Part shown: one piece after another, positions 30,242 to 48,570 of the stretch | Numbering within the stretch: position 1 is the stretch's first letter | Layout of the letters: every line of letters begins with the position of its first letter | Notes under the pieces: model-generated | Told to the model about the DNA's origin: nothing | What the model saw: the letters and a program-made list of their open reading frames with translations, nothing else | The model's database searches: none | Made by a program: the position numbers and the translations under genes | Assembly (NCBI GenBank): GCA_965217585.1 | Contig: OZ244561.1 | Coordinates: 1,137,424-1,201,423 of the forward strand | Reading direction: 5' to 3' | DNA: 64,000 bases | Source: Candidatus Latescibacterota bacterium | Lineage (GTDB): Bacteria > Latescibacterota > UBA2968 > UBA8231

Positions 30242-30251
30242 TGGAGACACT

Positions 30252-35268: not shown

Positions 35269-35307
35269 GTTCGATTTCACCTGTGGTTTAAGAAAGGAGT
35301 ATGGATC

Positions 35308-36300
35308 ATGGGCAACTCGGGTAACAACCTCCTTATAGGGTTTCTGGTCTTCAGCGTTTTGTTTTTTGCGGTGGCATTGCTCGTGGGGCATGACGACGTG
35401 GACGGTGCGGACAGTTTGGCTACATCCGCTTCAGGCACGGCGCGCGGGGACCGTCTCACCCTCGAGAGTCGGCAGTTGCGGCTCGTGTCGACGGTGTGGT
35501 CGCCGTTCACCAACGCGCCAGGACAGCCGCGGTTCGCCCTCAATCTGGTCGGCGAGGCGCTCCGACGCGTGGGGATCATCGCCGAAACGGTCATCGTGGA
35601 CGAGGCCAAGTTTACTTCCTCACTGCTGAGCGGCGAGTTCGACGGGAGCGCGGCCGTGTGGAAGTACGCGGAGCGCGAACCCGTGCTGATTTACTCGCAG
35701 CCGTATGTCTGGAACCGGTTGATCCTCGTCGGGCGGCAGGGCAGCGACGTGTCCGCGACCTCGCTGGCCGACCTCGCCGGCAAACGGATCGCCCTAGTCG
35801 CCGGGTACGTGTATGGCGAGGAAGTCGAGACAACGGACGGGCTGCTCATCGTTGGCTCGACCGGCGAAGAGGACAGCGTCGCAAAACTCCTCAACGGTGA
35901 GGTGGACTACACGCTGATGGACGACTTGGTCGTCCAGTACATCCTCAGCAACTACGAAGAAGAAGCTCAAACGCGGCTGGCGTTCGGCTCGACGCCGCTG
36001 CTCACACGCTCGCTTCACCTCGCAATCCGCCGGTCGCTTCCAGACGCCGAGTCGATCATCTCGCGGTTCAACGCCGAGCTGCGCGGCATGATCGCCGACC
36101 GCACCTACCATCGCCTGTTCCACCTCGAATGGATTCAAGCGGACGTCGATGGCGACGGTCGCAGCGAGCAGGTCCCTTACAACGACCAAGTCGGCCCGCG
36201 CCCGCCGGAGCATTCCTACAAGCTCTCCGCGACGGGCAGTCCGACCGCGAGGCCCGGCACGACGCAGCGTTTCTACTTCATTCGAGCAACCCAAGGCTGA
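35308..36300 (+). CDS. Membrane-anchored family-3 solute-binding-protein-like protein
   Basis: The N-terminal TM leader is shared with 37036 and 42295. The body LRLVSTVWSPFTNAPGQP...LSGEFDGSAAVWKYAEREPVLIYSQPY...LAGKRIALVAGYVYGE resembles SBP_bac_3. No permease or ATPase is nearby. Confidence 0.7.
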   Translation: MGNSGNNLLIGFLVFSVLFFAVALLVGHDDVDGADSLATSASGTARGDRLTLESRQLRLVSTVWSPFTNAPGQPRFALNLVGEALRRVGIIAETVIVDEAKFTSSLLSGEFDGSAAVWKYAEREPVLIYSQPYVWNRLILVGRQGSDVSATSLADLAGKRIALVAGYVYGEEVETTDGLLIVGSTGEEDSVAKLLNGEVDYTLMDDLVVQYILSNYEEEAQTRLAFGSTPLLTRSLHLAIRRSLPDAESIISRFNAELRGMIADRTYHRLFHLEWIQADVDGDGRSEQVPYNDQVGPRPPEHSYKLSATGSPTARPGTTQRFYFIRATQG

Positions 36301-36316
36301 TGCGGGACTGACCCAG

Positions 36317-37039
36317 ATGTTTGTGCCAGTGTCGATGTCCCTGCTGTTTTCGTTTCTCTTCGCCCTGCCCGTGACCTGGGTGTATCGCTGGACTCGGCCC
36401 CGCAAGAAATACAGCCAGGCCTTTGCCCAGACCCTCCTCGTCGTGCCCATTGCGATTGCCCTCGTCGTGTTTCTCGTCAAGGACAGTGTCGCCCTCGCCT
36501 TCAGTCTCGCGGGCATTGTCGCTGCGGTTCGCTTTCGCACGTCGTTGAACGAACCCATGGATGCCACCTATATGTTCATCGTCATTGGCATCGGGTTGGC
36601 GGCCGGTATCCAGTACGGTTCAGTGGCGATCCTGGCATCGGTGGCTTTCAATACCGTTGCACTTGGCGTCTGGCGCATGAACTGGGGAGCAGAGCCTGCG
36701 GTCCTATCCGGGTTCAAGTTGGTGCGTTCGGCCAAGGAGGGGTCGTTGACCGGTGTGAGCGGCGCACAGGCGGGTAAAGCTCCCAAACCGTATAATGCCA
36801 GGCTCAGGGTACACACGACGCAGATCAAGGCGGCGCAGCAGGCCGCTGTTGCGCTCCTGCCGACCTATGCCAAGCGCTGGCAGCAGGTGCGGACTGTAAA
36901 ACAGAAAGACGGCACTGCGATAGTCGAGTTTGACGTTCGGCTGAAGAAAAAAACGGATCCGGCCGCTTTCACCGCAGCGCTTGAAAAAAGCGCTGAGGGG
37001 CATACCCGCAAAGTGGAGTTGGAAGGTATGGGTAAATGA
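36317..37039 (+). CDS. DUF4956-like membrane protein (copy A, N-terminally shorter)
   Basis: The segment FVPVSMSLLFSFLFALPVTWVYRWTRPRKKY...ALAFSLAGIVAAVRFRTSLNEPMDATYMFIVIGIGLAAGI matches my recollection of the DUF4956 core. Paralogue of 41282..42298. Confidence 0.7.
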   Translation: MFVPVSMSLLFSFLFALPVTWVYRWTRPRKKYSQAFAQTLLVVPIAIALVVFLVKDSVALAFSLAGIVAAVRFRTSLNEPMDATYMFIVIGIGLAAGIQYGSVAILASVAFNTVALGVWRMNWGAEPAVLSGFKLVRSAKEGSLTGVSGAQAGKAPKPYNARLRVHTTQIKAAQQAAVALLPTYAKRWQQVRTVKQKDGTAIVEFDVRLKKKTDPAAFTAALEKSAEGHTRKVELEGMGK

Positions 37040-38052
37040 GCAGCCGGGGTAACAACTTCCTGATAGGGTTTCTGGTCTTCAGCGTTCTGCTTTTTGCGGT
37101 GGCATTGCTCGTGCGGCAGGACGCGGCGATCGATTCCGACGTGGACGTGCAGCATCATAGCACAGCAGGGATCGCACATGCGAAGGAGGACGAGGCAATC
37201 GATTCCAACGTGGATGCCGCGGACAGTTTGGCATCCACATCCGCTTCAGGCACGGCGCGCGGGGACCATCTCACTCTCGCGAGTTACGACCTCGAAAAGC
37301 CGGCGCGGTATTTCAAGCTGCCGAAGCGGTTGCGGGAGATTTCCGGCTTGGCCATGCTCGCCGAGAACCGACTCCTCGCGCACGATGACGAAAGGGGCGT
37401 GGTAGTAGAGATCGATTATCGCGATGGTTCGATTGTAAAGGCATTCGCACTCGGCGGTCGGCGCGGTCCGGTCGCCGACGACTTCGAGGGCATCGCCGCG
37501 GCTGCCGGTCGCATATACCTTGTCTCGAGCTCAGGACGGTTGTACGAGTTTGGCGAAGGTGCCGACGGGGAGGCCGTTCTCTACAATCTGTATGCAACCG
37601 GCATTGGACGAGATTACGAAATAGAGGGACTCGCCTACGACCCGGACCAACGAGTGCTGTTGCTCGTCAGCAAAAACCCCAAAAACCCCGGGCAGGCGGG
37701 CCTGATAGCGATATATCGCTGGTCCGTCGATACCAAACAGCTCGTCGAGGATGGCCGTATCCTCCTAGAGGCCTCCGCGCTGGCGCGCCGCATTGGCAGC
37801 AAACGATTCCAACCTTCGGGCATCGAGCGGCACCCGGTATCGGGAAACTACTTTCTCGTGGCTGCCCGCCAGCGCGCCGTTGCCGAGATTACCCCACAGG
37901 GACAGATTCTCGCCGTAGCCGAACTGGCACCCGGTCGGCATCCGCAGGCCGAGGGCATTTCCTTTGCTTCCGACAATACCTTGATCATAGCCGACGAAGG
38001 GGCGGGGAAGCGCGCACGCCTGAGCTTCTACCCCGTTGCAAAGGGCCGCTAG
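37036..38052 (+). CDS. YjiK/SdiA-regulated-like beta-propeller protein, membrane-anchored (copy A)
   Basis: TM leader, then repeated blade motifs EISGLA, DFEGIAA, IEGLAYD, PSGIERHP and AEGISF. ATGA overlap with the upstream gene. Confidence 0.75.
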   Translation: MSSRGNNFLIGFLVFSVLLFAVALLVRQDAAIDSDVDVQHHSTAGIAHAKEDEAIDSNVDAADSLASTSASGTARGDHLTLASYDLEKPARYFKLPKRLREISGLAMLAENRLLAHDDERGVVVEIDYRDGSIVKAFALGGRRGPVADDFEGIAAAAGRIYLVSSSGRLYEFGEGADGEAVLYNLYATGIGRDYEIEGLAYDPDQRVLLLVSKNPKNPGQAGLIAIYRWSVDTKQLVEDGRILLEASALARRIGSKRFQPSGIERHPVSGNYFLVAARQRAVAEITPQGQILAVAELAPGRHPQAEGISFASDNTLIIADEGAGKRARLSFYPVAKGR

Positions 38053-38135
38053 CGGCGCGCAAAAGAGCGACAATCTGCCGGCGCATTGGATGGGCAGGAC
38101 GTACAGTTGACAACCCCAAAAGCGAAGGAGTTTCC

Positions 38136-40847
38136 ATGATGACGCCTCCGAAGCGGCGCGCCATGTTTCTCCCGTTGGTGCTCGTTCTTTCCGTTCCGGC
38201 GGCATCGGCGTCCCAGGAAGACCCACCGGCTCCCGGGTCCATGATCCGCCGCTCCATTCCGCCTCCGGGCGCGACGACCCACCTGGTGATTCCCGGGGAG
38301 CGGTTCCGGACCTCCTCGTTTCGGCGCTGGTTCTACGGCAGCAACTACCGCGACCTCTGGACCACGCCGGTCGAGGTTCAGGTCCTTGACCTCGATCGGG
38401 TGGGAGGGGGCCTGACGCCGCTTCGCACCGGCGGCTTCGGACAGTCCATCTCGCTCCACTTCACCGGGCAGGATGGCCGCCGCTATACGGTCCGTTCGCT
38501 AGACAAGGACGCCACCCGACGGGTACCGGACATCGTCAGGAAAACGGTCGTGGGCGAAGTCCTTCAGGACCTGATCAGCGCGATGCTGCCCACCGGGGCG
38601 CTCGTGGTCGATCCCCTGATGGAAGCTACCGGCATCCTCCATTCCAGGCACGCGCTGGTTGTGATTCCGGATGATCCCCGGCTCGGAGAGTACCGCGCTT
38701 CCTTTGCGGGCTTGATAGGACTGTTGCAGGAGCATCCTTCCGAAGGCCCGGACGATACCGCCGGCTTCGCCGATTCCCGGAAGGTGAGCGGAACCGACAA
38801 GCTGTGGGACGACCTCGAAGACGGCCCCTGTGACCGTGTCGATGCCCGAGCCTTTCTCAAGGCGCGACTCATGGACTTTCTCATCGGCGACAAGGACCGT
38901 CATCACGGCCAGTGGCGATGGGCGCGGTTCCCCGACGGGGATTGCCATACCTGGCTCCCGATACCCGAGGATCGCGACCAAGCCTTCATTGATTTCGACG
39001 GGTTTGCGATGGCGTTAGCGCGCCGAGCGATACCTATCCAGATCCGGTTCGAGGACAGCTATCCAAATCTGGTTGGCCTGACCATGACCGGTTGGGAGTT
39101 GGATCGCGAGTTCCTGGCCGAACTCGACCGGACGGCGTGGGATGCGGTGGTAGCGGAATTTCGTGAGGACCTGCCGGATCCCGTCATCGAAGATGCAGTC
39201 CGCCGCCTCCCCCTGCCGTACTACGAAGGCGTCGGCGAAGCTCTTGCCAAGACCCTCAAGTCGCGGCGCGACGCGCTGCCTGATTTTGCCGACCGATACT
39301 ACGAGTTGATCACTCGCCAGGCCGAAATCCGGGCGACCGACCGGGACGAGGACCTCCACTGCGAGCACCTGCAGAACGGTGATCTCGTCGTCCGTATCGG
39401 TCTCGCCGAAGGACCCGGGGGAGAAAGAACGGCGCCCTGGTTCGAGCGGACGTTCCACGCCGAAGAAACGCGGGAGGTCCGCATAGCCCTCCGGGGGGGA
39501 GACGACAGCGCGGAGGTATCGGGGACGAACGGACGGATTTCCGTTCGCATCGATGGTGGCGGCGGGGATGACACCTTCGTCAACGCGTCCGGGGTTGGCG
39601 CTTCCAGAACGGCGTTCTACGACTCTCGCGGGAAGAATCGGTTTGTCGAGGGCAACGGAGCGCGAACCGACGAGCGTCCCTACCGACGCCCGCCCGCCAC
39701 CCACACGCCCAATGCCAAGTACGCGCTGGATTGGGGCATGCAGGCGTCAACCATCCCGATCGTCGAGGTGGATCGGGATCTGGGTGCGTTCCTCAGCATG
39801 TCTCACAGCCGGCAGTATTTCGGCTATCGCCGAGACCCGTTCGCTGCACGGCATTCCTTCAGCCTCGGGTTCGCCAGCAGCGGTCTCAAGCCCATTGCCT
39901 CCTATAGCGGCACCTTTCGCCGCCTTCTCCGCGATCTCGACGCCACCGTTCACCTCGAGTACTCCGGTGTCGAGACGGTCCGTTTCACCGGCTTCGGTAA
40001 CGACACGCAGCTTCTGGGTTCGTCCGACTTCTACAAGGTGGAACAGAAAATCTTTGTTTTCTCGCCCGCCATCGAGTTTCGCAGGGAACAGCGTCATGGA
40101 GAGGCGCACGCTGGGGGGACAAAACCACGGCGCTCGGAAACAGCGATCAGTCTGGGGCCCATCGTCAAGTACTCCAGCACGCCACTGGCTGCCAACCAGG
40201 ACAAATACATCGCTTCTCTGGATCACCCGGTGTACGGCATGGGTTCCTTCGGCCAGGTAGGAGCGCAGGGACGGGTCGAGTACGACACCCGCAACAATCC
40301 GGCGTACCCCACGAGCGGTCTCCTGGTCCGAGGCACCGGAGCCATCTACCCCGGCACCTGGGATGCAAAGTCGGCCTTTGGCACCGCAGAGGGAGCGGTG
40401 CATGCCTACCTGACGGCTCGTATTCCGACCACCCCCACCCTGGCCCTGAGAGCGGGCGGGAAGAAGGTATGGGGGACCTTCCCCTTCCACGAGAGCGCCT
40501 TCCTCGGCGGGCCCGGCTTTGCCGGTGTCGGCACCTCTGGCGGTCAGGTCCGCGGTGTTCGCAAGGACCGGTTTGCGGGAGACGCCTCGGTGTATGCAAA
40601 TGCCGAACTGCGCTTCGCGGTTGCCGCCTTCCGGCTCTTGATGCCGGGAGAGTTCGGCGTGTTTCTTGGCGCTGATACCGGCCGGGTATTCTTCGCCGGG
40701 GACCGGGCCGACGTCGGCAAATGGCACACCGGCGTCGGGGGTGGATTCTGGCTGTCGTTCCTCCAACGCCGACAGTCCGTGAGCGTTGCGGTCATGGAGG
40801 GCGCTGAAATGACGGGACTGTACGTGCGCGCCGGTTTCCTGTTCTAG
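38136..40847 (+). CDS. 903-aa protein: atypical-kinase-like N-domain plus Omp85/surface-antigen-like C-terminal barrel (copy A)
   Basis: Has a signal peptide and RBS AAGGAG. N-domain motifs TGGFGQSISLHF...YTVRSLDKD, DFLIGDKDRHHGQWRW and WLPIPEDRDQAFIDFDG. C-terminus FHESAFLGGPG...RGVRKDRFAGDASVYANAELRF...YVRAGFLF is typical of Omp85-family barrels. Confidence 0.8.
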   Translation: MMTPPKRRAMFLPLVLVLSVPAASASQEDPPAPGSMIRRSIPPPGATTHLVIPGERFRTSSFRRWFYGSNYRDLWTTPVEVQVLDLDRVGGGLTPLRTGGFGQSISLHFTGQDGRRYTVRSLDKDATRRVPDIVRKTVVGEVLQDLISAMLPTGALVVDPLMEATGILHSRHALVVIPDDPRLGEYRASFAGLIGLLQEHPSEGPDDTAGFADSRKVSGTDKLWDDLEDGPCDRVDARAFLKARLMDFLIGDKDRHHGQWRWARFPDGDCHTWLPIPEDRDQAFIDFDGFAMALARRAIPIQIRFEDSYPNLVGLTMTGWELDREFLAELDRTAWDAVVAEFREDLPDPVIEDAVRRLPLPYYEGVGEALAKTLKSRRDALPDFADRYYELITRQAEIRATDRDEDLHCEHLQNGDLVVRIGLAEGPGGERTAPWFERTFHAEETREVRIALRGGDDSAEVSGTNGRISVRIDGGGGDDTFVNASGVGASRTAFYDSRGKNRFVEGNGARTDERPYRRPPATHTPNAKYALDWGMQASTIPIVEVDRDLGAFLSMSHSRQYFGYRRDPFAARHSFSLGFASSGLKPIASYSGTFRRLLRDLDATVHLEYSGVETVRFTGFGNDTQLLGSSDFYKVEQKIFVFSPAIEFRREQRHGEAHAGGTKPRRSETAISLGPIVKYSSTPLAANQDKYIASLDHPVYGMGSFGQVGAQGRVEYDTRNNPAYPTSGLLVRGTGAIYPGTWDAKSAFGTAEGAVHAYLTARIPTTPTLALRAGGKKVWGTFPFHESAFLGGPGFAGVGTSGGQVRGVRKDRFAGDASVYANAELRFAVAAFRLLMPGEFGVFLGADTGRVFFAGDRADVGKWHTGVGGGFWLSFLQRRQSVSVAVMEGAEMTGLYVRAGFLF

Positions 40848-40850
40848 CCG

Positions 40851-41030
40851 AGGGAAGCGGCGAGGCCCATGTTCAACAACAGCCTCGTGCGCCTCGCAGG
40901 GTATTACTTCGCGTGGTACCTCGGCCTGTGCCGCTACCGCATCAGCACCCTCAAGAGACAGGACGACAACAAGCAGAGCAATCGCCCGGCGACGCAGCCA
41001 TGGACGGATGAAGCGCGCGATTCGGTTCAT
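40851..41030 (-). pseudogene. Relic 5' end (signal-peptide region) of a third Omp85-like paralogue
   Basis: MNRIARFIRPWLRRRAIALLVVVLSLEGADAVAAQ aligns with the copy-B N-terminus MNRNEHLSSPWLRRRATALLVAALHLGGADAVVAK, with matching DNA runs. Similarity fades and ends at the stop codon of copy A. Confidence 0.5.
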
Positions 41031-41281
41031 AAAATCGGATGCTCGTTTTTGCCCTGTTTTTGACGGGCGTGCTCATTCAGCGCGTCAAGGGCTTGTTCCC
41101 ATACCCCGCGTTTAAGCTATAGTACAAACACAGCTCTTTTAACTCAACAGCTTCTAATTAATTGCACACAATTGCGCTTCAATTTTTTGGTGTATATCTT
41201 AGCCGACCGCGGAGCGTTCTGTTCGCATCTGTGATCCCGACGCGACCTGCATTGCGGAAACAGTGGTAAAAGGAACTGATA

Positions 41282-42298
41282 ATGCTCGACAAAATAACTG
41301 AGGGGCTCGACAAAATAACAGATAGGCTCGACAACGTAATCGTCCGTCTCGTGGCTTACTATATTGCCATATCCCTTTTTTTTGCGAGCATTTTGTTGTT
41401 GTTGCCAGACATCTCGATTTACATAACCAAGGGAGAGATGAGTTCCATATTAGCCATTTTGTCATCCCCGCAATTCGGGGCAGAGTTCGGGCGCTTACTG
41501 GAAGAGTCCAGGGTCTCCGGGGCCGATCCGAAGCTGGAACCGGAAGAGATCGAGCGCTTACTGGAAAAGTCCGGTGGCTTCCACCTCTCGACGTTCGTGC
41601 CGATTTCGATGGCACTGCTGTTTTCGTTTTTCTATGCCCTGCCCGTGACTTGGGTGTATCGCTGGACCCGGCCCCGCAAGAAATACAACCCAGACCTTGT
41701 CCATACCCTCCTCGTCGTGCCCATTGCGATTTCCCTCGTCGTTTTTCTCGTCAAGGACAGTATCGCGCTCGCCTTCAGTCTCGCGGGCATTGTCGCCGCA
41801 GTTCAGTTCCGCGCGACATTGAGGGACCCCCTAGATGCCACCTACATGTTCATCGTCATTGGCATCGGATTGTCGGCTGGTATCGGTATCGGTCAAGTGG
41901 CTATTTTGGCCTCGGTGGCTTTCAATGCCGTTGTTTTGGGCATCTGGCGCATGAACTACGGGGCGAAGCCTGCTGCCCTGTCCGGGTTCAGGCTGGTGCG
42001 TCCCGCCAAGTCGTTGCCCGGTGTGAGCGGCACCCAGGCGGGTAAAATCCCCAAATCGTATAATGCCAAGCTCAGGGTACATACGGCGCAGGTCGAGGCG
42101 GCACAGCAGGCCGCTGTTGCGCTCTTGGCGACCTATGCCAAGCGGTGGCGACAGGTGCGGATTGTGCAGCAGGAGGACAGCACTGCGATCGTCGAATTTG
42201 ACGTGCGGCTGAAGAAAACCGCAGATCCGGCCGCCTTCACTAGAGAGCTTGAAAAAAGTACAGAGGGCCATACCGTCAAAGTGGAGCTGGAATTATGA
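41282..42298 (+). CDS. DUF4956-like membrane protein (copy B, full length)
   Basis: 338 aa. Carries an extra N-terminal ~100 aa with a TM helix, then the same core as copy A (ALPVTWVYRWTRPRKKY...ALAFSLAGIVAAVQFR...). Confidence 0.8.
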   Translation: MLDKITEGLDKITDRLDNVIVRLVAYYIAISLFFASILLLLPDISIYITKGEMSSILAILSSPQFGAEFGRLLEESRVSGADPKLEPEEIERLLEKSGGFHLSTFVPISMALLFSFFYALPVTWVYRWTRPRKKYNPDLVHTLLVVPIAISLVVFLVKDSIALAFSLAGIVAAVQFRATLRDPLDATYMFIVIGIGLSAGIGIGQVAILASVAFNAVVLGIWRMNYGAKPAALSGFRLVRPAKSLPGVSGTQAGKIPKSYNAKLRVHTAQVEAAQQAAVALLATYAKRWRQVRIVQQEDSTAIVEFDVRLKKTADPAAFTRELEKSTEGHTVKVELEL

Positions 42299-43260
42299 GT
42301 GCCCCGAGTAACAACCTCCTGAGCGGGTTTTTGGTCTTCAGCGTTTTGATTTTTATAGCGTCATTGCTCGTGCGGGAGGACGCGGCAATCGAACCCGTCG
42401 TGGACACCGCAGCCGACACCGCGGACAGTTTGGCATCTACATCCTCATTCGCTCTAAGCACGCCGCACGAGGACAACCTTACCCTCGCGAGTTACGACCT
42501 CAAAAAACCAGCGCGGCGTTTCAAGCTGCCGAAGCAGTGGCGGGAGATCTCCGGCTTGACCATGCTTGGAGAGAACCGACTCCTCGCGCACGATGACGAA
42601 AGGGGCGTAGTATTCGAGATAGACTATCGCGATGGTTCGATTGTAAAGGCGTTTGCACTCAGCGATCAGCTCGATCCGGTCGCCGACGACTTCGAAGGCA
42701 TCGCCGCGGCTGAAGGCCGCGTGTACCTCGTTTCGAGTTCAGGGCGGTTATACGAGTTTGTCGAAGGCTCCGATGGAGAGACTGTTCTCTACAATCTATA
42801 TACAACCGGAATTGGACGAGACCACGAAATAGAGGGACTCGCCTACGACCCGGACCAACGGGTGCTATTGCTCATCAGCAAAAACCCCAAGAACCCCGGG
42901 CAGACAGGCCTAGTAACGATATGTCGCTGGTCCCTCGATACCAAGCAGCTCGTCGAGGGTGGCCATATCCTCATACCAGCCGTCGCGCTCTCGAGCCGCA
43001 CCGACAGCAAGCGATTCCAACCTTCGGGCATCGAGCGGCACCCGGTATCGGGAAACTACTTTGTCGTGGCGGCCCGCCAGGGCGCCATTGCCGAGATTAC
43101 CCCAAAGGGACAGGTCCTCGCCGTCGCGGATCTTGCGGCTGATCGGCATCCACAGACCGAGGGCATTGCGTTTACTTCCGACAATACACTGATCGTATCC
43201 GACGAAGGGGTGAGCAAGCGCGCGACCCTGACTTTTTACTCCGTTTCAAAGGGCCGGTAA
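42295..43260 (+). CDS. YjiK/SdiA-regulated-like beta-propeller protein, membrane-anchored (copy B)
   Basis: Collinear with 37036..38052 (NRLLAHDDERGVVFEIDYRDGSIVKAFAL, RFQPSGIERHPVSGNYF). ATGA overlap with the upstream gene. Confidence 0.8.
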   Translation: MSAPSNNLLSGFLVFSVLIFIASLLVREDAAIEPVVDTAADTADSLASTSSFALSTPHEDNLTLASYDLKKPARRFKLPKQWREISGLTMLGENRLLAHDDERGVVFEIDYRDGSIVKAFALSDQLDPVADDFEGIAAAEGRVYLVSSSGRLYEFVEGSDGETVLYNLYTTGIGRDHEIEGLAYDPDQRVLLLISKNPKNPGQTGLVTICRWSLDTKQLVEGGHILIPAVALSSRTDSKRFQPSGIERHPVSGNYFVVAARQGAIAEITPKGQVLAVADLAADRHPQTEGIAFTSDNTLIVSDEGVSKRATLTFYSVSKGR

Positions 43261-43316
43261 TTGCAGGCTTGTCCCGGCGGACGGAATCTTTGTGGCCACC
43301 CAGGCGTTACTTGGGA

Positions 43317-44471
43317 ATGAACTATCCCCAAAAAGCGACGCGCCGGCGCGGTTTAGCGCTGGGGATCGTCTTGCTCTTGGCGCTGGTCGTGGTCGTAGCA
43401 GGTTGCCGGGCGGGGCACCTGCAAGGGGAGAACTACGGTGCCGACGACGAGCCGTACATCCGGCGGGATGTCCCGTCGGATGCGATCGCGACCAGCGGTC
43501 GGGTCGCGTATCGAGTCATCTTGGTCGGAGACACTGGGGAGCCGGTGCCGGACGATCCCACCCTTGCCGCAATCGGGCGCTGGGCGGCTCCGCAGGAGCG
43601 GGCCGCGGTCGTGCTACTGGGGGACAACCTCTACCCGTCGGGGCTTGCAGCCGATGACCGCGCTAGGGGTGAAGCCATTTTGCGCCAGCAGCTCGCGGCG
43701 ACCTCGGCGCTGCGGATTTTCGTGCCGGGCAACCACGATTGGGGCTCTTCACCGCAAGACTGGACGGGAGCGCACGTCGTCGCGCAGCAGGAATTCGTGC
43801 TTGCGTGGCCAGAGGGCGACGTGGACTTCCTACCCCGCGATGGATGCGCCGGCCCAGTCGTGCGCGAGTTGCTCAAGCCTGGGGATGGGCTGGAGCAGGG
43901 GGTCGCGGTCGTCGCCATTGACTGGATGCCTTGGTTCTCACCGGTCGCCGACACTAGCAGGTGCCCGGACGGGGATTTCGGGGCGCGGATCGACGCGGCC
44001 TTCTCGGCCCTAAAGAGGCATTTCGTGATCGTGGTGAGCCACTTTCCGCTGCGCTCGGGCGGCATCCGCGCCGGCTTCAGCCGCGGGTTCATCATCGACT
44101 TCTTCATAGACTTCTATCACCTGCTGCGACCGCGACCGCCCCTCAATCTGTACAATCCGCAATACATGGTCCTCGCAAAGCAGGTGAAGGACGCGTTAGC
44201 AAGACACCGGCCCCTCGTCTATGCCGCGGGACACGATCACAGCCTACAGCTCTTCGAGGCGGACGAAGTCGCTCGGATGCACATCGTGAGCGGGGCGGGT
44301 TCGGCCGGCAAAGTGTCGCCCGTAACCGCCGTGGCCGGGACGATCTTCGCCCACGCCGTCCCGGGATTCGCGGTACTCGATTTCGCAATCCACGACGGAG
44401 TTGACACCCCAGTCGTACGCATCGTGAGAACTGGGCAGGAAGTGCCCGTGTTCCAGATGCGCATTCCGTAG
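43317..44471 (+). CDS. Calcineurin-like metallophosphoesterase, lipoprotein
   Basis: Lipobox VVVAGC. Motifs VILVGDTGE, LLGDNLYPSG, VPGNHDW and AAGHDHS. Confidence 0.8.
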   Translation: MNYPQKATRRRGLALGIVLLLALVVVVAGCRAGHLQGENYGADDEPYIRRDVPSDAIATSGRVAYRVILVGDTGEPVPDDPTLAAIGRWAAPQERAAVVLLGDNLYPSGLAADDRARGEAILRQQLAATSALRIFVPGNHDWGSSPQDWTGAHVVAQQEFVLAWPEGDVDFLPRDGCAGPVVRELLKPGDGLEQGVAVVAIDWMPWFSPVADTSRCPDGDFGARIDAAFSALKRHFVIVVSHFPLRSGGIRAGFSRGFIIDFFIDFYHLLRPRPPLNLYNPQYMVLAKQVKDALARHRPLVYAAGHDHSLQLFEADEVARMHIVSGAGSAGKVSPVTAVAGTIFAHAVPGFAVLDFAIHDGVDTPVVRIVRTGQEVPVFQMRIP

Positions 44472-44508
44472 CGTGATTTCGCGTGACCGGACAATCCGAA
44501 CCGGGTTT

Positions 44509-47154
44509 CTAAAACATGAATCCGCCGCGCAGGTATATGCCGGTCAAATCCTCGCCCTCCATCATCGCCGCGCTCAACGTCGCCCGACGCTTGAGAAACG
44601 AGATCCAAAGCCCGCCGCCGCTGCCAATGTGCCAGCCATCGGCCTCCTCCGAGTCGGCGTCGAAGAATACCCGCCCCGCATCGACGGCGGCGAATGCGCC
44701 AAGTTCACCCGGAGACGGGAACCGGATTCGAGTCAGCCGCACCCGGAACTCACCGTTCCCGTAGAGGGCGGACTCGCCAGCGAAGCGGTCCTCGCGGAAG
44801 CCCCGCAGGTTGTCGGGGCCGCCGACCGCGGCGGCTTCGTGGAACGGAAACGCGCCGCGGATGGTTTTGCCGCCCACGCGCAGGGCGAGAGTGGGCAGAG
44901 TGGGAACGTTGGCTGACAGGTACGCAGATGCGTCGCCGGCAACGTAGCCGAAGGTCGATTCGACGTCCCACAGCTTTGGGTAGAGTTCGCCGCTGAGCCT
45001 GAACCGCACGCCCCGCCGGGCATGGCCCGAATTGTCTCGGGCATCGTAAACGAGTTCCCCGCCGACGCCGATCTGCCCGAAGGCCTCCGTCCCGTACAGG
45101 GGCGTCTCATAGGTGGCGATGAACTTCCCCTTGTTGTCGTGCAAAGGGGTGTCGGTAAACTTGACGAGCGGCCCGCCGGTCAGAGTCCACATCCCCTGCG
45201 ACCGATCAGAGACCCAAAGGAGCGTGGGCGCGAAGAGGAACTGCGCCTGCTCCACCTCGTAGAACGACTCGGCACGCAGGATCTCAACGTCGTTTCCGAA
45301 GCCGTTGAAGCGAATCACGTTGAAGCTGGAGTATTCCATCTGAAGCAGACCGTCTAGGTCCCGCAGTAGATGCCGGAACTTCCCAGAATAGGCAACAAGG
45401 GGTTTGGTTCTCGCGCTAGCGGTGACTCCGAGGTCGAACGAGTGTTGCGACGCATACGGCTTCTTCCGATAGCCATGGTATATCCGGGTGTAGAACAGCC
45501 CGGCGTAGGCACCGAGGTCTGGGCTGTAGCTGACGATCGGCAGCGAAACCGTCTCCCAGCCCCAGTCGATGACGTACCTGTCCGTAACCGCCCTCGAGGG
45601 AGCCGGCCGCTTGTACGGCCGCTCGTCGATCAGGGCCTTGTGCGCGTCGAAGCGGTTCTCACCGCGAGCGTCGTAGAATCGCGTCATCCACCGTCCAGCC
45701 CGCGACCGGTTCGCGTAGGTATCGCCGCCGCTGCCGCCATCGACGCGGGCCCTGATCTTAGCCCGCTCTCCGAGGAGGACGATCTCATCGTCCCCGCCGT
45801 GTAGGTAGATCCTGACTTCCTTTGTCTCATGGGGATACAGGGTGCGGCGGAAGTACGGGGCGCTCTGCGTCCCCGCCAAGCGGATGCGAACCTCTAACTC
45901 GCCGTTCTCTCGATGTTCCAATTCGAGGTACTCGTCCTCGTCCGTCCCCTTGATCTCAACCTCTCTGCTAATAAACTCGTAGTACCGTGCTGCGAACTCG
46001 CCGAGATGGTCGCGGCGCGTCTTCAGCGCCCGGGTGAGGAAATCCCCCACCTGCTCGTAGTACGGGTCCGGCAATCGCCGGACGGCGTCCTCAATCACCG
46101 GGTCCGGCAGTTCGGCCTGCACCGTGGTGGCCACGGAGTCCCACGCGCTCCACTCCAACTCGGCCAGTAGCTCGCGGTCGAGTTCCCAGCCGTTGCGGGG
46201 GAGTCCTCGGTGGTCCGGGTACTGCTCTTGAAAGCGGACGTATTTGGGCTCGATCCAGCGCACCAGCTTCATGAGTAGGCCGTCGAAATCGATGAAGGCT
46301 TGGTCCCGGTCTTCGGGGATGGGTAACCACGTGTAGCAGTCTCCGACCGGAAATCGCGCCCAGCGCCATTGGCCCGAGTGCCGATCCTTGTCGCCGACGA
46401 GAAAATCGACGAGTCGCGCCTTGAGATAAGCGCGCGCATCAACTCGTTCGCAGGGCGTCTTTTCGAGGCGCTTGTATAGCTTGTCCGTGCCGCTCACCTT
46501 GCGGGATCCGGCAAATCCCGGCTCATCGTCGGCCGCTTCGGACGGATGTTCCTGCAAGGTGCCGATCAGCCCGGCAAACTCTTGGCGATACTCTCCCAAC
46601 CGCGGATCGTCGGGGATTACTACCAGCCGGTGCGACGCGTGCAGTATGCCCGTTGCTTCCATCAGCGCATCCACCACCAGCCCCCCCGTCGGCAGCAGGG
46701 CACTCATGAGATCTTGAATCACATCCTCGACGACGGTATCCTTGAGTTCCTCCATCAGCCGCTTGGATGGATCCTTGTCGAGGGAGCGCACCGTGTAACG
46801 GCGGCCGTCCTGGCCCACAAAATGCAGCGAAATGGACTGGCCAAAGCCGCCCGTGCGCATGGGCGACAATCCGCCGCCCACCGCATCGAGATCGAGGATC
46901 GGCACCTCGATCGGCGTCGTCCAGATCTGGCGATAGTTGCTACCGTAGATCCACCGCTGCAAACGACCTGCTTTGAATCGCTCACCCGGTACCACCACGT
47001 GCATCGTGTCGCCCTTCTCCGGGATAGAGCGATGAATTAGCTGGCCGGCCTTTGCCACTACCGCATCAGCACCCCCAAGATGCAGGGCAGCAACAAGCAG
47101 CGCCGTCGCCCGGCGACGTAGCCAAGGACTGCTCAGATGCTCGTTTCGGTTCAT
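44509..47154 (-). CDS. ~880-aa protein: atypical-kinase-like N-domain plus Omp85-like C-terminal barrel (copy B)
   Basis: Full-length paralogue of 38136..40847 (TGGFGQSISLHFVGQDGRRYTVRSLDKD; VDFLVGDKDRHSGQWRW; WLPIPEDRDQAFIDFDG; C-terminus ...IYLRGGFMF). ATG 47154 is preceded by GGAGGG. Confidence 0.8.
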   Translation of the reverse strand: MNRNEHLSSPWLRRRATALLVAALHLGGADAVVAKAGQLIHRSIPEKGDTMHVVVPGERFKAGRLQRWIYGSNYRQIWTTPIEVPILDLDAVGGGLSPMRTGGFGQSISLHFVGQDGRRYTVRSLDKDPSKRLMEELKDTVVEDVIQDLMSALLPTGGLVVDALMEATGILHASHRLVVIPDDPRLGEYRQEFAGLIGTLQEHPSEAADDEPGFAGSRKVSGTDKLYKRLEKTPCERVDARAYLKARLVDFLVGDKDRHSGQWRWARFPVGDCYTWLPIPEDRDQAFIDFDGLLMKLVRWIEPKYVRFQEQYPDHRGLPRNGWELDRELLAELEWSAWDSVATTVQAELPDPVIEDAVRRLPDPYYEQVGDFLTRALKTRRDHLGEFAARYYEFISREVEIKGTDEDEYLELEHRENGELEVRIRLAGTQSAPYFRRTLYPHETKEVRIYLHGGDDEIVLLGERAKIRARVDGGSGGDTYANRSRAGRWMTRFYDARGENRFDAHKALIDERPYKRPAPSRAVTDRYVIDWGWETVSLPIVSYSPDLGAYAGLFYTRIYHGYRKKPYASQHSFDLGVTASARTKPLVAYSGKFRHLLRDLDGLLQMEYSSFNVIRFNGFGNDVEILRAESFYEVEQAQFLFAPTLLWVSDRSQGMWTLTGGPLVKFTDTPLHDNKGKFIATYETPLYGTEAFGQIGVGGELVYDARDNSGHARRGVRFRLSGELYPKLWDVESTFGYVAGDASAYLSANVPTLPTLALRVGGKTIRGAFPFHEAAAVGGPDNLRGFREDRFAGESALYGNGEFRVRLTRIRFPSPGELGAFAAVDAGRVFFDADSEEADGWHIGSGGGLWISFLKRRATLSAAMMEGEDLTGIYLRGGFMF

Positions 47155-47211
47155 CTCTTTATCACCCTCCATGGCTAAACAACGGACAGCAAAGTACGGG
47201 ATAGATAGCTC

Positions 47212-48570
47212 CTATTCAAACGCTTTCTCCAAGGCCGCTGGAAACACGTGTATTTGATTTGCATACGCCTCGCGCAACTCGGCCAATAGCACATCCATGG
47301 CCTCGGTTTCGGCCTGTTGTCTCAGGACCGTGCGAATGCTCTCCCGCACAAAAGCAAAATCCGCTACCTGGCCGGCGGCGCGGGTAAACTGGTCGAGGTG
47401 CTGGTCGTAAAAGGCCCGCACGGCCTCGTCGCCGATTTCTCCGACCTGTGCGGCCTCGGCTTGGTAGAGCCGCTTGACCAACAAGGCGTCTCGTTCCCTT
47501 GCGACGCTGGCGCGGATATCCGCATCGTCGTCAATCCCCAGTTTGCGGGCTTCCGCTACCATGATCTGCTTGCCAGCGAGGTTATCTACGGCCTTGTACA
47601 GGCGCGCACTGTCGAGTTCGGCCGGATGCGGCGCGCGGCCCTGCTCGACTAAGGCGAGGTACTCCCGCGCCATGAGCTGGCCACCGCGCCAAGTGAGCAG
47701 CGGCGCGTCCCCTTCATCCCACCGAGTCGATTGCTGCGGAACGGCGAGCAACTCGGCAAAAACCTCCGCGTCCAGCGCGAGCTGATACCGCTGGCGCAGA
47801 GTGCCGACGTAGCGCTCCATATCGTCGGCCCGGCTCTGCACGCGGACCTTTTTCTCCACCCACTCGCGGACCGCGGCAAAATCGACGGGGCGTCGTTCCC
47901 CAAGCCTGAAGACGTGGTAGCCACTCGCGGTCTGCACGGGGTCGGGATACACGCTGCCGACGGGCATGGTAGCGAGCGGCACCTTCAGCCCCTCGTACAC
48001 CTCGCCGATCTTGAACCAGCCGACCCAACCGCCGGGGCCAAAGCGCTGCTGGATGTTCTGCAGAGAATAGGGCCGCACCAGCGACTCAAAAGGCGTCCCT
48101 TCGCCAAGCAGCTCGAGGACGAGGCGGGCCTCTTCTTCGGTGGCGCAGACAATGTGCTGACTGAGCACTTCTACGTCGTACTGCTGTTGGGCAAAGAACG
48201 CCCGCAGGTCCGCGTCCGAAAACGAATACGACGCCTGTACGGCCTCTAGCTCGTAGAGCTTGTTCATCAGCGCCTTGCGCTCGCTCTTGGCCACGGCTTG
48301 GGCGATGTCCGGGTCGCGGTCGTACCCGCGCCGGAGGGCCTCGGCAATGAGCAATTCCCGCGCGATGACGCCATCGAGCAGTTCCTGCTTGCCCTGCTGA
48401 TTCAGCTCCTCGACGTGGCTGTAGCCGGTCTCCCGCAGCTTTTGCGCCATCGCCTCAAACTGCCGCACCGAAACGACCTTGTCGCCGATGTGCAGAACCG
48501 TCTCTTCCGCGCCTAGAGCCGCGCTGCCCAAGACGAGGAATGCTAAGGTGCTAACTAGCGAATATTTCAC
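47212..48570 (-). CDS. SurA/PrsA-like parvulin-type peptidyl-prolyl isomerase
   Basis: GTG 48570 (RBS AAGGAAG) gives signal peptide VKYSLVSTLAFLVLGSAALGA. The parvulin core is VLSQHIVCATEEEA...GGWVGWFKIGE...TASGYHVFRLGERR. Confidence 0.8.
   Translation of the reverse strand: MKYSLVSTLAFLVLGSAALGAEETVLHIGDKVVSVRQFEAMAQKLRETGYSHVEELNQQGKQELLDGVIARELLIAEALRRGYDRDPDIAQAVAKSERKALMNKLYELEAVQASYSFSDADLRAFFAQQQYDVEVLSQHIVCATEEEARLVLELLGEGTPFESLVRPYSLQNIQQRFGPGGWVGWFKIGEVYEGLKVPLATMPVGSVYPDPVQTASGYHVFRLGERRPVDFAAVREWVEKKVRVQSRADDMERYVGTLRQRYQLALDAEVFAELLAVPQQSTRWDEGDAPLLTWRGGQLMAREYLALVEQGRAPHPAELDSARLYKAVDNLAGKQIMVAEARKLGIDDDADIRASVARERDALLVKRLYQAEAAQVGEIGDEAVRAFYDQHLDQFTRAAGQVADFAFVRESIRTVLRQQAETEAMDVLLAELREAYANQIHVFPAALEKAFE

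What the first reader, a model, noticed from the sequence alone, without database searches (positions are those of the whole stretch)
35308..47154. Duplicated, rearranged envelope module: DUF4956-like, YjiK-like propeller and kinase-like/Omp85 protein, with a metallophosphoesterase and an SBP-like protein
There are two copies of a three-gene set:
- A: 36317..37039, 37036..38052 and 38136..40847, all on the plus strand.
- B: 41282..42298 and 42295..43260 on the plus strand, with 44509..47154 convergent on the minus strand. A lipoprotein metallophosphoesterase (43317..44471) lies in between.

The paralogues share long identical peptide runs, including ALPVTWVYRWTRPRKKY, NRLLAHDDERGVV.EIDYRDGSIVKAFAL, RFQPSGIERHPVSGNYF, TGGFGQSISLHF.GQDGRRYTVRSLDKD and WLPIPEDRDQAFIDFDG. 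Copy A of the DUF4956-like gene lacks the ~100-aa N-terminal part present in B.

From memory of public annotations, DUF4956 genes commonly sit beside VTC (polyphosphate-polymerase-like) and CotH atypical-kinase genes. Bacteroidota also encode metallophosphoesterase-Omp85 fusions. Together with a phytase-like propeller, this hints at an extracytoplasmic phosphate, polyphosphate or phospho-ester handling system. That functional reading is inference only.
Basis: partly seen in the sequence, partly recalled or inferred. Interest (0 to 1): 0.7.

Follow-up and report, generated by a model that had tools for sequence, protein, structure and literature searches.

The report
Outer-membrane kinase-like module, polyphosphate-linked
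Two rearranged copies of a widespread but unstudied bacterial envelope gene set sit here, built around an outer-membrane barrel that carries a kinase-like enzyme domain; in distant relatives the same genes lie next to polyphosphate kinase, which points to phosphate or polyphosphate chemistry outside the cytoplasm.

Summary
All eight ORFs exist, and the paralogue pairs are far beyond chance: A1/B1 78% aa, A2/B2 71%, A3/B3 54%. HMMs confirm DUF4956, a YjiK/phytase-like propeller, an Omp85 barrel, Metallophos and a borderline SBP_bac_3 hit.

The roughly 500-aa N-terminal half of the 900-aa proteins matches nothing in Pfam or in PDB sequences. A confident AlphaFold model (pLDDT 95) has a protein-kinase-like fold. 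Its nearest neighbours are H. pylori CtkA, PI4KIIα, Rio2 and Fam20C, and the Lys, DxDRHxxQW and DRDQAF motifs are (nearly) invariant.

The trio is a conserved operon in 75 of 77 related genome loci, spread over Latescibacterota, Gemmatimonadota, Poribacteria and Acidobacteriota. In cultured Bacteroidota the metallophosphoesterase and the kinase-Omp85 protein are fused into one polypeptide.

Among distant family members, 15 of the 40 loci of at least 10 kb place polyphosphate kinase PPK1 beside the gene, often together with DUF4956.

The duplication is composite. The DUF4956 and propeller pair is a recent lineage-specific duplicate, whereas the two barrel proteins are older paralogues.

The best reading is an envelope-spanning, polyphosphate-linked phosphoryl-transfer or hydrolysis system. 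That function is inferred, not shown. The family is undescribed in the literature I could search.

The parts
35308..36300 (+). g0: inner-membrane-anchored solute-binding-protein-like gene. Its first ~57 codons are a copy of the propeller genes' N-terminal anchor cassette.
   Evidence: SBP_bac_3 at 25.4 bits against a cut-off of 26.4. Weak ArtI/ArtJ-type hits. Single N-terminal TM helix. 88% nt identity to the 5' end of A2. Orthologues occur only in L005-L007 and L049.
36317..37039 (+). A1: DUF4956 polytopic inner-membrane protein. It is N-terminally truncated relative to the family norm.
   Evidence: PF16316 at 47.4 bits. TM segments. 78% aa identity to B1. Lacks TM1 and the loop that are present in B1 and in canonical ~330-aa homologues.
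37036..38052 (+). A2: membrane-anchored periplasmic YjiK-like/phytase-like six-bladed beta-propeller.
   Evidence: PF13449 and PF06977 above cut-off. Family profile hits PDB 3qqz (YjiK) at E 4e-9. N-terminal TM anchor. 4-nt overlap with A1.
38136..40847 (+). A3 ('KOMP'): signal peptide, protein-kinase-like domain (aa ~36-395), beta-roll with GGDD/GGGGDD repeats (aa ~396-500) and an Omp85-type barrel (aa ~520-903). No POTRA domain.
   Evidence: AF2 model of aa 36-520 with pLDDT 95.4 and pTM 0.94. Foldseek hits CtkA at E 3e-6, plus PI4KIIalpha, Rio2 and Fam20C. Invariant or nearly invariant K, DxDRHxxQW and DRDQAF motifs. Omp85 hits.
40922..41030 (-). Remnant of the 5' end (signal-peptide coding part) of a B3-type gene, just downstream of A3.
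   Evidence: Direct repeat D5, 81% identical to 47046-47154. It translates to MNRIARFIRPWLRRRAIALLV, compared with MNRNEHLSSPWLRRRATALLV in B3.
41282..42298 (+). B1: full-length DUF4956 inner-membrane protein. It has an N-terminal TM helix, an acidic loop, a four-to-five-helix core and a ~100-aa C-terminal soluble domain.
   Evidence: PF16316 at 46.7 bits. TM profile. Same architecture as the DUF4956 genes that sit beside PPK1 in L095, L097, L140 and L160.
42295..43260 (+). B2: second YjiK-like/phytase-like propeller with a membrane anchor.
   Evidence: PF13449 at 41.6 bits and PF06977 at 35 bits. 71-76% aa identity to A2.
43317..44471 (+). MPE: lipoprotein calcineurin-like phosphoesterase carrying the five purple-acid-phosphatase-type motifs (GDTG, GDNLY, GNHD, VSHF, GHDH).
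   Evidence: PF00149 at 31.5 bits. Lipobox VVAGC. Weak PDB hits to purple acid phosphatases, E ~0.015. 30% identical (E 2e-37) to the N-terminal domain of the Chitinophaga fusion protein P0378.
44509..47154 (-). B3: second KOMP (kinase-like domain + beta-roll + Omp85 barrel), convergent with MPE.
   Evidence: 54% aa identity to A3. Omp85, ShlB and Omp85_fam hits. Catalytic motifs intact. 95.5% identical orthologue in L049, in the same MPE-convergent arrangement.

Best explanation
The region holds two paralogous versions of a widespread, uncharacterised cell-envelope module.

Core protein ('KOMP'). It is an outer-membrane Omp85-type barrel. Its N-terminal half is a protein-kinase-like domain with a complete catalytic motif set, followed by a beta-roll.

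Partners:
- a polytopic inner-membrane DUF4956 protein;
- a membrane-anchored periplasmic YjiK/phytase-like beta-propeller;
- in version B, a lipoprotein purple-acid-phosphatase-like metallophosphoesterase;
- in this lineage only, an anchored solute-binding-like protein.

Most likely mechanism (inferred). This is a polyphosphate-linked extracytoplasmic phosphoryl-transfer and hydrolysis system.
1. Polyphosphate is made in the cytoplasm by PPK1. PPK1 is encoded next to the module in many distant relatives, and presumably elsewhere in this genome.
2. DUF4956 hands it across or to the inner membrane. This is by analogy with the VTC polymerase/channel, and with the Gram-positive CotH-VTC-DUF4956 cassette.
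3. The barrel-tethered kinase-like domain uses it, or a nucleotide, to phosphorylate or process an envelope or extracellular substrate.
4. The propeller and the metallophosphoesterase hydrolyse or trim the phospho-ester or polyphosphate.

Shown: gene content, folds, conserved motifs, topology signals, conserved operon, fusion, PPK1 adjacency.
Inferred: the direction of flow, the donor, the substrate, and which side of the outer membrane the kinase domain faces.
For: Domains.

Kinase-like fold:
- AF2 pLDDT 95.4.
- Foldseek top hits are all kinases: CtkA at E 3e-6 and TM 0.51, PI4KIIalpha, Rio2, Fam20C.
- In 123 diverse sequences the Lys of RSxDK, the R of DRH and both D of DRDQAF are invariant; the other DxDRHxxQW positions are at least 90% conserved.
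- The catalytic-loop motif D-R-x-x-D-[NQ]-W is shared with PI4KIIalpha (DRGNDNW), checked against the PDB sequence.

Topology: signal peptides, lipobox and TM anchors place all soluble domains outside the cytoplasm.

Conserved operon:
- 55 of 77 genome loci are KOMP-DUF4956-propeller.
- 75 of 77 have DUF4956 adjacent.
- The loci span several phyla.
- No other gene family recurs across them, apart from a patatin-Omp85 in 27 loci.

Rosetta stone:
- MPE + kinase-like + Omp85 occur as one ~1210-1340-aa protein in many Bacteroidota.
- Both halves are homologous to the window's MPE (E 2e-37) and to A3 (E 3e-102).
- A propeller gene lies immediately upstream of the fusion in 3 of 3 cultured Bacteroidota examined.

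Polyphosphate link:
- CYTH-PPK1 lies within the locus in 20 of 86 distant loci, and in 15 of the 40 that are at least 10 kb.
- The arrangements vary: DUF4956-MPE-KOMP-PPK, DUF4956-PPK-MPE-KOMP, KOMP-DUF4956-PPK.
- These KOMPs have a median pairwise identity of 42%.
- PPK1 is also present in Chitinophaga sp. YR573.

Literature: cotH + polyphosphate polymerase + DUF4956 form a recurring accessory cassette in Gram-positives (10.1101/768473; PMC2879425).
Against: - There is no PPK, VTC or CYTH gene in this window, nor in any of the 81 closely related loci. The polyphosphate link therefore comes only from distant family members.
- No protein-kinase-fold enzyme is known to use polyphosphate as donor (my knowledge).
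- The periplasm has no ATP pool.
- DUF4956 has no demonstrated transport function.
- 40 of the 86 distant loci show no partner, although many of those contigs are short.
- PPK1 adjacency could equally reflect co-regulation for phosphate storage.
- The orientation of the kinase domain (periplasm or cell surface) is unknown.
Confidence: 0.45

Rival explanations
1. Phosphorus-scavenging module. The barrel protein captures or admits external organophosphates, phytate or polyphosphate. The propeller and the purple-acid-phosphatase-like enzyme release phosphate in the periplasm. The kinase-like domain acts mainly as a ligand-binding or regulatory domain. PPK1 adjacency simply reflects storage of the phosphate that has been taken up.
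For: - Phytase-like and purple-acid-phosphatase-like hydrolases.
- An anchored solute-binding-like protein in this lineage.
- All soluble parts are extracytoplasmic.
- PPK1 adjacency is compatible with a phosphate regulon.
Against: - The complete kinase catalytic motif set is invariant or nearly invariant across 123 diverse sequences. That argues for catalysis rather than mere binding.
- Omp85 barrels are not known as open nutrient channels (my knowledge).
- No Pst, PhoU or TonB-type uptake genes recur in the loci.
- No E. coli-type Pho box is present, though this is uninformative for this phylum.
- It does not explain the parallel CotH-VTC-DUF4956 cassette in Gram-positives.
Confidence: 0.25
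2. Type V (Vd-like) self-exporting surface or secreted kinase. The Omp85 barrel translocates the N-terminal kinase-like passenger to the cell surface, or releases it, to act on host or neighbouring cells. The analogy is with the secreted H. pylori kinase CtkA and with the PlpD patatin autotransporter. This would fit symbiont lifestyles.
For: - The best structural match is the secreted kinase CtkA.
- The architecture (N-terminal enzyme + Omp85 barrel) parallels PlpD.
- A PlpD-like patatin-Omp85 gene sits directly upstream of KOMP in 27 of 77 related loci.
- The gene is multi-copy in Poribacteria and Latescibacterota MAGs.
Against: - No POTRA domain lies between passenger and barrel.
- The family is abundant in non-host (soil-type) metagenomes and in free-living Bacteroidota.
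- The conserved partners are inner-membrane or periplasm-anchored proteins.
- PPK1 and DUF4956 linkage is not expected for an effector.
Confidence: 0.12
3. Outer-membrane biogenesis or lipid-homeostasis factor of the BamA/TamA type, as public annotation suggests. The N-terminal domain would be a structural or regulatory pseudo-enzyme. The neighbouring genes would be only loosely related.
For: - Source annotations read 'BamA/TamA family outer membrane protein'.
- Omp85 and ShlB Pfam hits.
Against: - No POTRA domains.
- NCBIfam Omp85_fam scores of 68-87 bits against a cut-off of 200, and a BamA equivalog score of 14 bits against 297.
- Invariant catalytic residues.
- Tight operon and fusion links to phosphoesterases.
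- The gene is multi-copy and subject to insertion and deletion between close relatives, so it is not essential housekeeping.
Confidence: 0.08

Closest known systems
Gram-positive CotH kinase + VTC-type polyphosphate polymerase + DUF4956 accessory cassette (described beside pel operons, 10.1101/768473; C. perfringens NELoc-2, PMC2879425)
   Same: - A DUF4956 membrane protein is encoded with an extracytoplasmic protein-kinase-fold enzyme.
- In distant KOMP loci it is also encoded with a cytoplasmic polyphosphate-synthesising enzyme that carries a CYTH/TTM-type domain.
   Different: - The kinase-fold protein here is not CotH; there is no PF08757 hit. It is welded to an Omp85 barrel.
- The polymerase is PPK1 rather than VTC, and it is absent from this window.
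- A propeller and a metallophosphoesterase are added.
- That cassette is itself functionally uncharacterised.
PlpD / type Vd autotransporters (patatin passenger - POTRA - 16-strand Omp85 barrel)
   Same: - An N-terminal enzyme domain is fused to a C-terminal Omp85-superfamily barrel.
- A PlpD-like gene is the immediate upstream neighbour in 27 related loci.
   Different: - The passenger is a kinase-like domain plus a beta-roll, not a patatin domain.
- No POTRA domain was detected.
- There are dedicated inner-membrane and periplasmic partners.
Atypical kinases CtkA (H. pylori), PI4K type II, Fam20C
   Same: - Fold-level similarity: Foldseek E 3e-6 to 5e-4, TM up to 0.52 on the target.
- The catalytic loop motif DRxxD[NQ]W is shared with PI4KIIalpha.
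- CtkA and Fam20C also act outside the bacterial cytoplasm or in the secretory pathway (my knowledge).
   Different: - Only 10-13% identity.
- No sequence-level hit to any Pfam or PDB kinase.
- The context differs: outer-membrane-tethered in diderm bacteria.
Bacteroidota proteins of ~1210-1270 aa annotated 'metallophosphoesterase' or 'BamA/TamA family outer membrane protein' (e.g. Chitinophaga sp. YR573, Larkinella, Catalinimonas)
   Same: - They are true homologues. The N-terminal third matches the window's MPE and the rest matches A3/B3 end to end, with the same motifs.
- A YjiK-like propeller gene lies directly upstream.
   Different: - They are fused into one chain, whereas in the window they are split (MPE and B3 convergent; A3 has no MPE).
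- The membrane partner there is an HD+PycTM protein rather than DUF4956.
E. coli YjiK (SdiA-regulated family, PDB 3qqz)
   Same: The propeller genes belong to the same family by Pfam and by profile-to-PDB match.
   Different: - As far as I know YjiK has no assigned function and no known kinase-barrel partner.
- Here the propeller is membrane-anchored and operonic with KOMP.

Membership tests
DUF4956 (PF16316) | Score above the Pfam gathering threshold on the polytopic membrane core | tested here: met
   A1 47.4 bits and B1 46.7 bits against a cut-off of 30.6. The hits cover profile positions 10-106 of 169.
SdiA-regulated / YjiK propeller (PF06977) and Phytase-like (PF13449) | Pfam score above threshold; relationship to the solved YjiK structure | tested here: met
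   PF06977 32.6 and 35.0 bits (cut-off 21). PF13449 34.8 and 41.6 bits (cut-off 27.6). The family profile hits 3qqz at E 4.4e-9.
Beta-propeller phytase (enzymatic activity) | Hydrolysis of phytate or other phospho-esters | not testable with these tools
   Only the family name suggests this. Conserved acidic and His residues per blade are compatible with a metal-dependent hydrolase but do not demonstrate one.
Omp85 superfamily (PF01103) | C-terminal beta-barrel domain above the gathering score | tested here: met
   A3 25.1 bits and B3 29.3 bits against a cut-off of 24. B3 also hits ShlB at 23.7 bits against 22.7.
BamA/TamA family (as annotated in public records) | One or more POTRA domains N-terminal to the barrel; equivalog-level score | tested here: not met
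   No POTRA Pfam hit, even at E<=10 on the N-terminal 520 aa. The model shows a kinase-like fold plus a beta-roll instead. TIGR03303 BamA scores 14 bits against 297. NF047779 scores 68-87 bits against 200.
Type Vd autotransporter (PlpD-like) | Patatin passenger + POTRA + Omp85 barrel | tested here: not met
   A3 and B3 have neither a patatin nor a POTRA domain. Genuine patatin-Omp85 genes exist as neighbours in other loci, but not in the window.
Protein-kinase-like (PKL) fold superfamily | Bilobal kinase fold with N-lobe Lys, catalytic-loop Asp and metal-binding Asp | tested here: met
   AF2 pLDDT 95.4. The 11 best Foldseek hits, and most of the top 50, are kinase or phosphotransferase structures. 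The Lys, the R of DRH and both D of DRDQAF are invariant and the rest of DxDRHxxQW is at least 90% conserved over 123 sequences. Secondary-structure order is helix, catalytic loop, two strands, DRD.
Protein-kinase-like (enzymatic activity) | Phosphotransfer from ATP or another donor | not testable with these tools
   Needs biochemistry. Conservation of the motifs is the only indication.
CotH kinase family (PF08757) | Pfam CotH match | tested here: not met
   No hit at E<=10 for the N-terminal halves of A3 or B3. CotH structures are not among the top 50 Foldseek hits.
PI3/PI4-kinase families and HipA/CtkA | Sequence-level family membership | tested here: not met
   There is no Pfam or PDB sequence hit. 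The resemblance is limited to the fold and to the short DRxxD[NQ]W loop motif.
Calcineurin-like metallophosphoesterase (PF00149), purple-acid-phosphatase-like | Pfam score above threshold; the five metal-ligand motifs | tested here: met
   31.5 bits against a cut-off of 21.5. The motifs GDTG, GDNLY, GNHD, VSHF and GHDH can be read in the sequence. PDB hits to purple acid phosphatases are weak, E ~0.015.
Family-3 solute-binding protein (PF00497) | Pfam score above the gathering threshold | tested here: inconclusive
   25.4 bits against a cut-off of 26.4. NCBIfam ArtI/ArtJ scores are ~22 bits against cut-offs above 500.
Polyphosphate-linked gene cluster (PPK1/VTC neighbourhood) | A polyphosphate-synthesising enzyme encoded in the same locus | tested here: not met
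   No PPK1 is found in the window or in the 81 close loci. The feature is met only in distant family members: 20 of 86 loci and Chitinophaga.

The most novel reading that the evidence does not exclude
KOMP, DUF4956 (or the HD+PycTM protein), PPK1 and the periplasmic phosphoesterases together form a previously unrecognised trans-envelope machine of diderm bacteria. It would either export polyphosphate to the periplasm or cell surface, or use polyphosphate to power an outer-membrane-tethered kinase in an ATP-free compartment. It would be the Gram-negative counterpart of the CotH-VTC-DUF4956 cassette. It is expanded and horizontally shared among (apparently sponge-associated) Latescibacterota, Poribacteria, Gemmatimonadota and Acidobacteriota.
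Probability: 0.3. Interest if true: 0.85.

Novelty: new variant of a known kind. Interest (0 to 1): 0.72.

Why it matters
1. It defines a large protein family whose ~360-aa kinase-like domain has no Pfam model and no literature that I could find. The family has at least 3009 clusters at 50% identity with E<=1e-3. Its members are currently mislabelled 'BamA/TamA family' or just 'metallophosphoesterase'.

2. It gives three orphan families a common, testable context through operon conservation and a Rosetta-stone fusion. These are DUF4956, the YjiK/SdiA-regulated propellers and the Bacteroidota metallophosphoesterase-Omp85 proteins.

3. The recurrent link to PPK1 suggests a route by which polyphosphate chemistry reaches the bacterial envelope. 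How bacteria place polyphosphate, or phosphorylate substrates, outside the cytoplasm is, to my knowledge, unresolved.

4. Homologues exist in cultured Bacteroidota (Chitinophaga, Larkinella, Catalinimonas, Arcicella), so genetics and biochemistry are feasible.

5. The module is multi-copy, rearranged and ~65% identical across phyla in MAGs whose names point to sponge microbiomes. From my own knowledge, symbiont polyphosphate storage has been reported in sponge microbiomes.

Tried and rejected
- Sequence searches of A3 and of the family profile against the PDB found nothing. Pfam found nothing on the N-terminal halves at E<=10.
- The first AF2 run used a shallow alignment of 37 sequences, all at least 63% identical. 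It gave pLDDT 58 and was discarded. A run with 123 diverse sequences succeeded.
- CotH membership was rejected.
- BamA/TamA and type Vd membership were rejected for lack of POTRA and patatin domains.
- A search for an E. coli-type Pho box over the whole window gave 0 hits. This is uninformative for Latescibacterota.
- The sigma-70 promoter scan was at chance level, and the terminator-like sites were only modestly above chance and not interpreted.
- PPK1 and HD+PycTM were searched for in the window and in close loci and are absent.
- Weak-hit Pfam scans of DUF4956 proteins for VTC, DUF202 or transporter similarity found nothing significant.
- Literature searches for Omp85 combined with kinase-like, metallophosphoesterase or calcineurin-like returned nothing relevant. 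The R. anatipestifer metallophosphoesterase that came up is, per the review read here, a T9SS-secreted effector and was not pursued.
- The idea that A and B arose by a simple in-situ triplet duplication was rejected on identity and dS grounds.

Full report
**Observation**

The paralogy is unambiguous:
- A1/B1: 78% aa identity, E 1e-123, 83.5% nt identity.
- A2/B2: 71% aa identity, E 5e-175, 85% nt identity.
- A3/B3: 54% aa identity over 904 aa, 69% nt identity.

All five quoted peptide runs occur in both copies. A1 read from 36317 lacks the first TM helix and the loop that B1 and canonical homologues possess. The coordinates 36317, 43317 and 47154 are sensible starts. The repeat at 40922-41030 mirrors the B3 start at 47154.

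**Domain identities**

Pfam results:
- DUF4956: 47 bits against a cut-off of 30.6.
- Phytase-like and SdiA-regulated for the propellers, both above cut-off.
- Omp85 for the C-termini of A3 and B3.
- Metallophos for the lipoprotein.
- SBP_bac_3 for g0, just under cut-off.

A profile of 22 propeller homologues hits E. coli YjiK (3qqz) best, at E 4e-9. The metallophosphoesterase shows the five purple-acid-phosphatase-type motifs. It has weak PDB hits to those enzymes.

Hydropathy and signal features:
- g0, A2 and B2 have a single N-terminal anchor.
- A3 and B3 have signal peptides.
- MPE has the lipobox VVAGC.
- B1 has about six TM segments and a C-terminal soluble domain of about 100 aa.

So every soluble domain except the DUF4956 tail is predicted to be extracytoplasmic.

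**The unknown half of the 900-aa proteins**

Residues ~30-520 of A3 and B3 match nothing in Pfam (E<=10) or in PDB sequences, even with a profile.

An exhaustive HMMER search of 1.84 billion cluster representatives found 3009 clusters at E<=1e-3 and 1380 at E<=1e-30. Nearly all are 840-900 aa, which means the same architecture.

With a 123-sequence alignment, AlphaFold2 gave pLDDT 95.4 and pTM 0.94; an earlier run with a shallow alignment failed.

In Foldseek against the PDB the best matches are kinases, and kinases and other kinase-fold phosphotransferases dominate the list:
- H. pylori CtkA: E 3e-6, target-normalised TM 0.51.
- PI4KIIalpha.
- Rio2.
- Fam20C.

Across the alignment the Lys of RSxDK, the R of DRH and both Asp of DRDQAF are invariant, and the remaining positions of DxDRHxxQW are at least 90% conserved. 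The loop D-R-x-x-D-[NQ]-W matches PI4KIIalpha's DRGNDNW, which I verified against the PDB sequence.

Residues ~396-500 form a beta-roll with GGDD/GGxGDD repeats. The remaining ~380 aa form the barrel. There is no POTRA domain.

I call this protein KOMP (kinase-like Omp85 protein). It is not CotH (no PF08757 hit). It does not meet BamA/TamA or PlpD criteria.

**Conservation of the gene set**

A scan of one genome per species returned 77 loci. All are MAGs of Latescibacterota, Gemmatimonadota/Longimicrobiales, Poribacteria and Acidobacteriota. The window's closest relatives are Latescibacterota, at 92-95%.

Gene order in these 77 loci:

| Arrangement | Loci |
|---|---|
| KOMP-DUF4956-propeller | 55 |
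| Same trio with a second KOMP | 6 |
| KOMP-DUF4956 only | 10 |
| Window-like order with the SBP gene (L005-L007) | 3 |
| Version B complete with MPE and convergent KOMP (L049) | 1 |
| KOMP with a divergently oriented propeller only | 1 |
| KOMP alone | 1 |

De novo clustering of all flanking ORFs found no other recurrent family. The one exception is a patatin-Omp85 (PlpD-like) gene directly upstream of KOMP in 27 loci.

KOMP identity across these phyla is 62-69%. That is high for a 900-aa outer-membrane protein and suggests horizontal spread; this is inference. MAG names such as RHO, IRC, PCPOR, SB and Poribacteria point to sponge microbiomes. That rests on my own knowledge and was not verified.

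**History of this locus**

A 6.19-Mb relative (L001, ~91% nt identity in the flanks) shows these differences from the window:
- It lacks 35272-37634 (g0, A1 and the 5' part of A2). It keeps a 132-aa remnant of A2.
- It lacks 40882-47206, which is all of version B.

A 109-nt remnant of a B3-type 5' end lies just after A3. g0 carries a copy of the propeller's anchor cassette.

Identity and dS analysis shows a composite origin:
- A1/B1 and A2/B2 are a recent, lineage-specific duplication, with dS 0.34-0.55 and dN/dS 0.40-0.47.
- A3 and B3 are older paralogues, with dS 1.8 and dN/dS 0.21.

Hence the region is a rearrangement hot spot holding a composite duplication.

**Functional links from distant relatives**

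1. Fusion. P0193 is Metallophos + kinase-like + Omp85 in one chain. Its homologues of about 1210-1270 aa are common in cultured Bacteroidota. In the Chitinophaga sp. YR573 protein, aa 24-358 align to the window's MPE (E 2e-37). Its aa 373-1218 align to A3 end to end (E 3e-102), with the motifs intact. MPE is also translationally coupled upstream of KOMP in L082.

2. Propeller. A YjiK-like gene lies immediately upstream of the fusion in all three Bacteroidota genomes examined. It is also next to KOMP in several metagenome loci.

3. Polyphosphate. I looked at 86 loci of distant family members (34-47% identity to a distant query). Neighbour counts were as follows:
   - CYTH-PPK1 of about 1060 aa: 20 loci.
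   - DUF4956: 16 loci.
   - MPE: 17 loci.
   - Propeller: 13 loci.
   - Among the 40 loci of at least 10 kb, 29 have at least one partner and 15 have PPK1.

   The arrangements vary (DUF4956-MPE-KOMP-PPK, DUF4956-PPK-MPE-KOMP, KOMP-DUF4956-PPK, MPE-KOMP-PPK). The PPK-linked KOMPs share only 42% median identity, so the link is not a single inherited synteny. Since PPK1 is normally close to single-copy (my knowledge), such adjacency should be rare by chance; I did not run a formal null. Chitinophaga also has PPK1, in an operon with an HD+PycTM membrane protein, divergent from propeller-KOMP. That HD+TM protein recurs in seven more of the loci held.

4. Literature. cotH, a polyphosphate polymerase and DUF4956 form a recurrent accessory cassette in Gram-positives (10.1101/768473; C. 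perfringens NELoc-2). I found no paper on Omp85 proteins with kinase-like or metallophosphoesterase domains.

**Interpretation**

Shown:
- an outer-membrane barrel carrying an apparently catalytically competent kinase-fold domain;
- a tight genomic partnership with an inner-membrane DUF4956 protein and periplasmic phosphoesterase-type proteins;
- physical fusion with one of those proteins in another phylum;
- repeated proximity to polyphosphate kinase in distant members.

Inferred:
- Polyphosphate made by PPK1 reaches the envelope via DUF4956. The analogy is with the eukaryotic VTC polymerase/channel, which I know from the literature.
- Polyphosphate then serves the kinase-like domain as donor or substrate.
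- The propeller and MPE act as hydrolases.

Weaknesses:
- No PPK1 is encoded in the window or in its close relatives.
- No kinase-fold enzyme is known to use polyphosphate.
- The orientation of the kinase domain is unknown.
- DUF4956 is unmodelled.

The main rival is a phosphorus-scavenging module. Less likely are a Vd-like exported effector kinase and a BamA/TamA-like biogenesis factor.

**Verdict**

The family is real, large, unannotated and experimentally accessible. The function is not established.

Noticed in passing
window 35308-35469 vs 37036-37284 vs 42295-42492: There are three copies of a ~110-160-nt cassette encoding the N-terminal membrane anchor and a following TSASGTARGD-type linker. 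Two are on the propeller genes. The third is grafted onto the solute-binding-like gene g0, which makes g0 a mosaic gene.
   Followed up: partly
window 40922-41030 (minus strand): A 109-nt remnant of the 5' end of a B3-type gene sits just downstream of A3. It is 81% identical to 47046-47154, and the two copies bracket version B as a direct repeat 6124 nt apart.
   Followed up: partly
L001 (6.19-Mb relative) vs window 35272-37634 and 40882-47206: A ~91%-identical relative lacks g0, A1, the 5' part of A2 and all of version B. It keeps a 132-aa C-terminal stub of A2. The locus is an indel hot spot, and KOMP can persist without its local partners.
   Followed up: yes
L009-L047, L077 (27 loci), e.g. 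L028:2046-4322: A patatin + Omp85 (PlpD-like, type Vd) gene lies directly upstream of KOMP on the same strand in 27 of 77 related loci, sometimes in two copies. It is not present in the window.
   Followed up: partly
L168:4701-6002 (-), L169:4643-5893 (-), also L120, L141, L143, L144, L150, L162: An HD-domain + PycTM-like membrane protein recurs beside KOMP loci. It lies directly upstream of PPK1 in Chitinophaga and in L150. It looks like an alternative membrane partner to DUF4956.
   Followed up: partly
L012, L013, L050, L065, L070, L075; OZ253501, OZ244960, OX638377, JAPPFJ01: KOMP is often present in tandem or in several copies per genome in these MAG lineages.
   Followed up: no
window 55946-61162 (GC 42-53% against ~60% elsewhere): The low-GC tail of the window carries a type I restriction-modification system: HsdM at 55946-57496, an HsdS-like gene at 60362-61162, and a RhuM-family gene at 58539-59333. 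It is probably a foreign island.
   Followed up: partly
window 47212-48786 (-): The SurA-like PPIase ORF carries an UnbV_ASPIC fragment at its N-terminus. The relative L001 has an intact FG-GAP/UnbV_ASPIC gene at that spot, so the window has a deletion there.
   Followed up: partly
window 25806-35268: Four large secreted proteins are syntenic with L001. They have FlgD_ig, CHU_C (T9SS-type C-terminal) and F5/8-type-C signatures. The 901-aa protein at 32563-35268 has no Pfam match. They are not conserved next to KOMP elsewhere.
   Followed up: no
window 41479-41516 and 41542-41579 (inside B1): A short internal direct repeat (38 nt, 82% identical) encodes a duplicated AEFGRLLEES/EEIERLLEKS peptide. 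It lies in the predicted periplasmic loop that A1 lacks.
   Followed up: no
L084, L140 and other PPK-linked loci: The PPK1 next to KOMP usually carries an extra ~350-aa N-terminal extension with a CYTH (triphosphate-tunnel) domain. That domain belongs to the same superfamily as the VTC polymerase domain of the Gram-positive cassette (the superfamily relation is from my own knowledge).
   Followed up: partly
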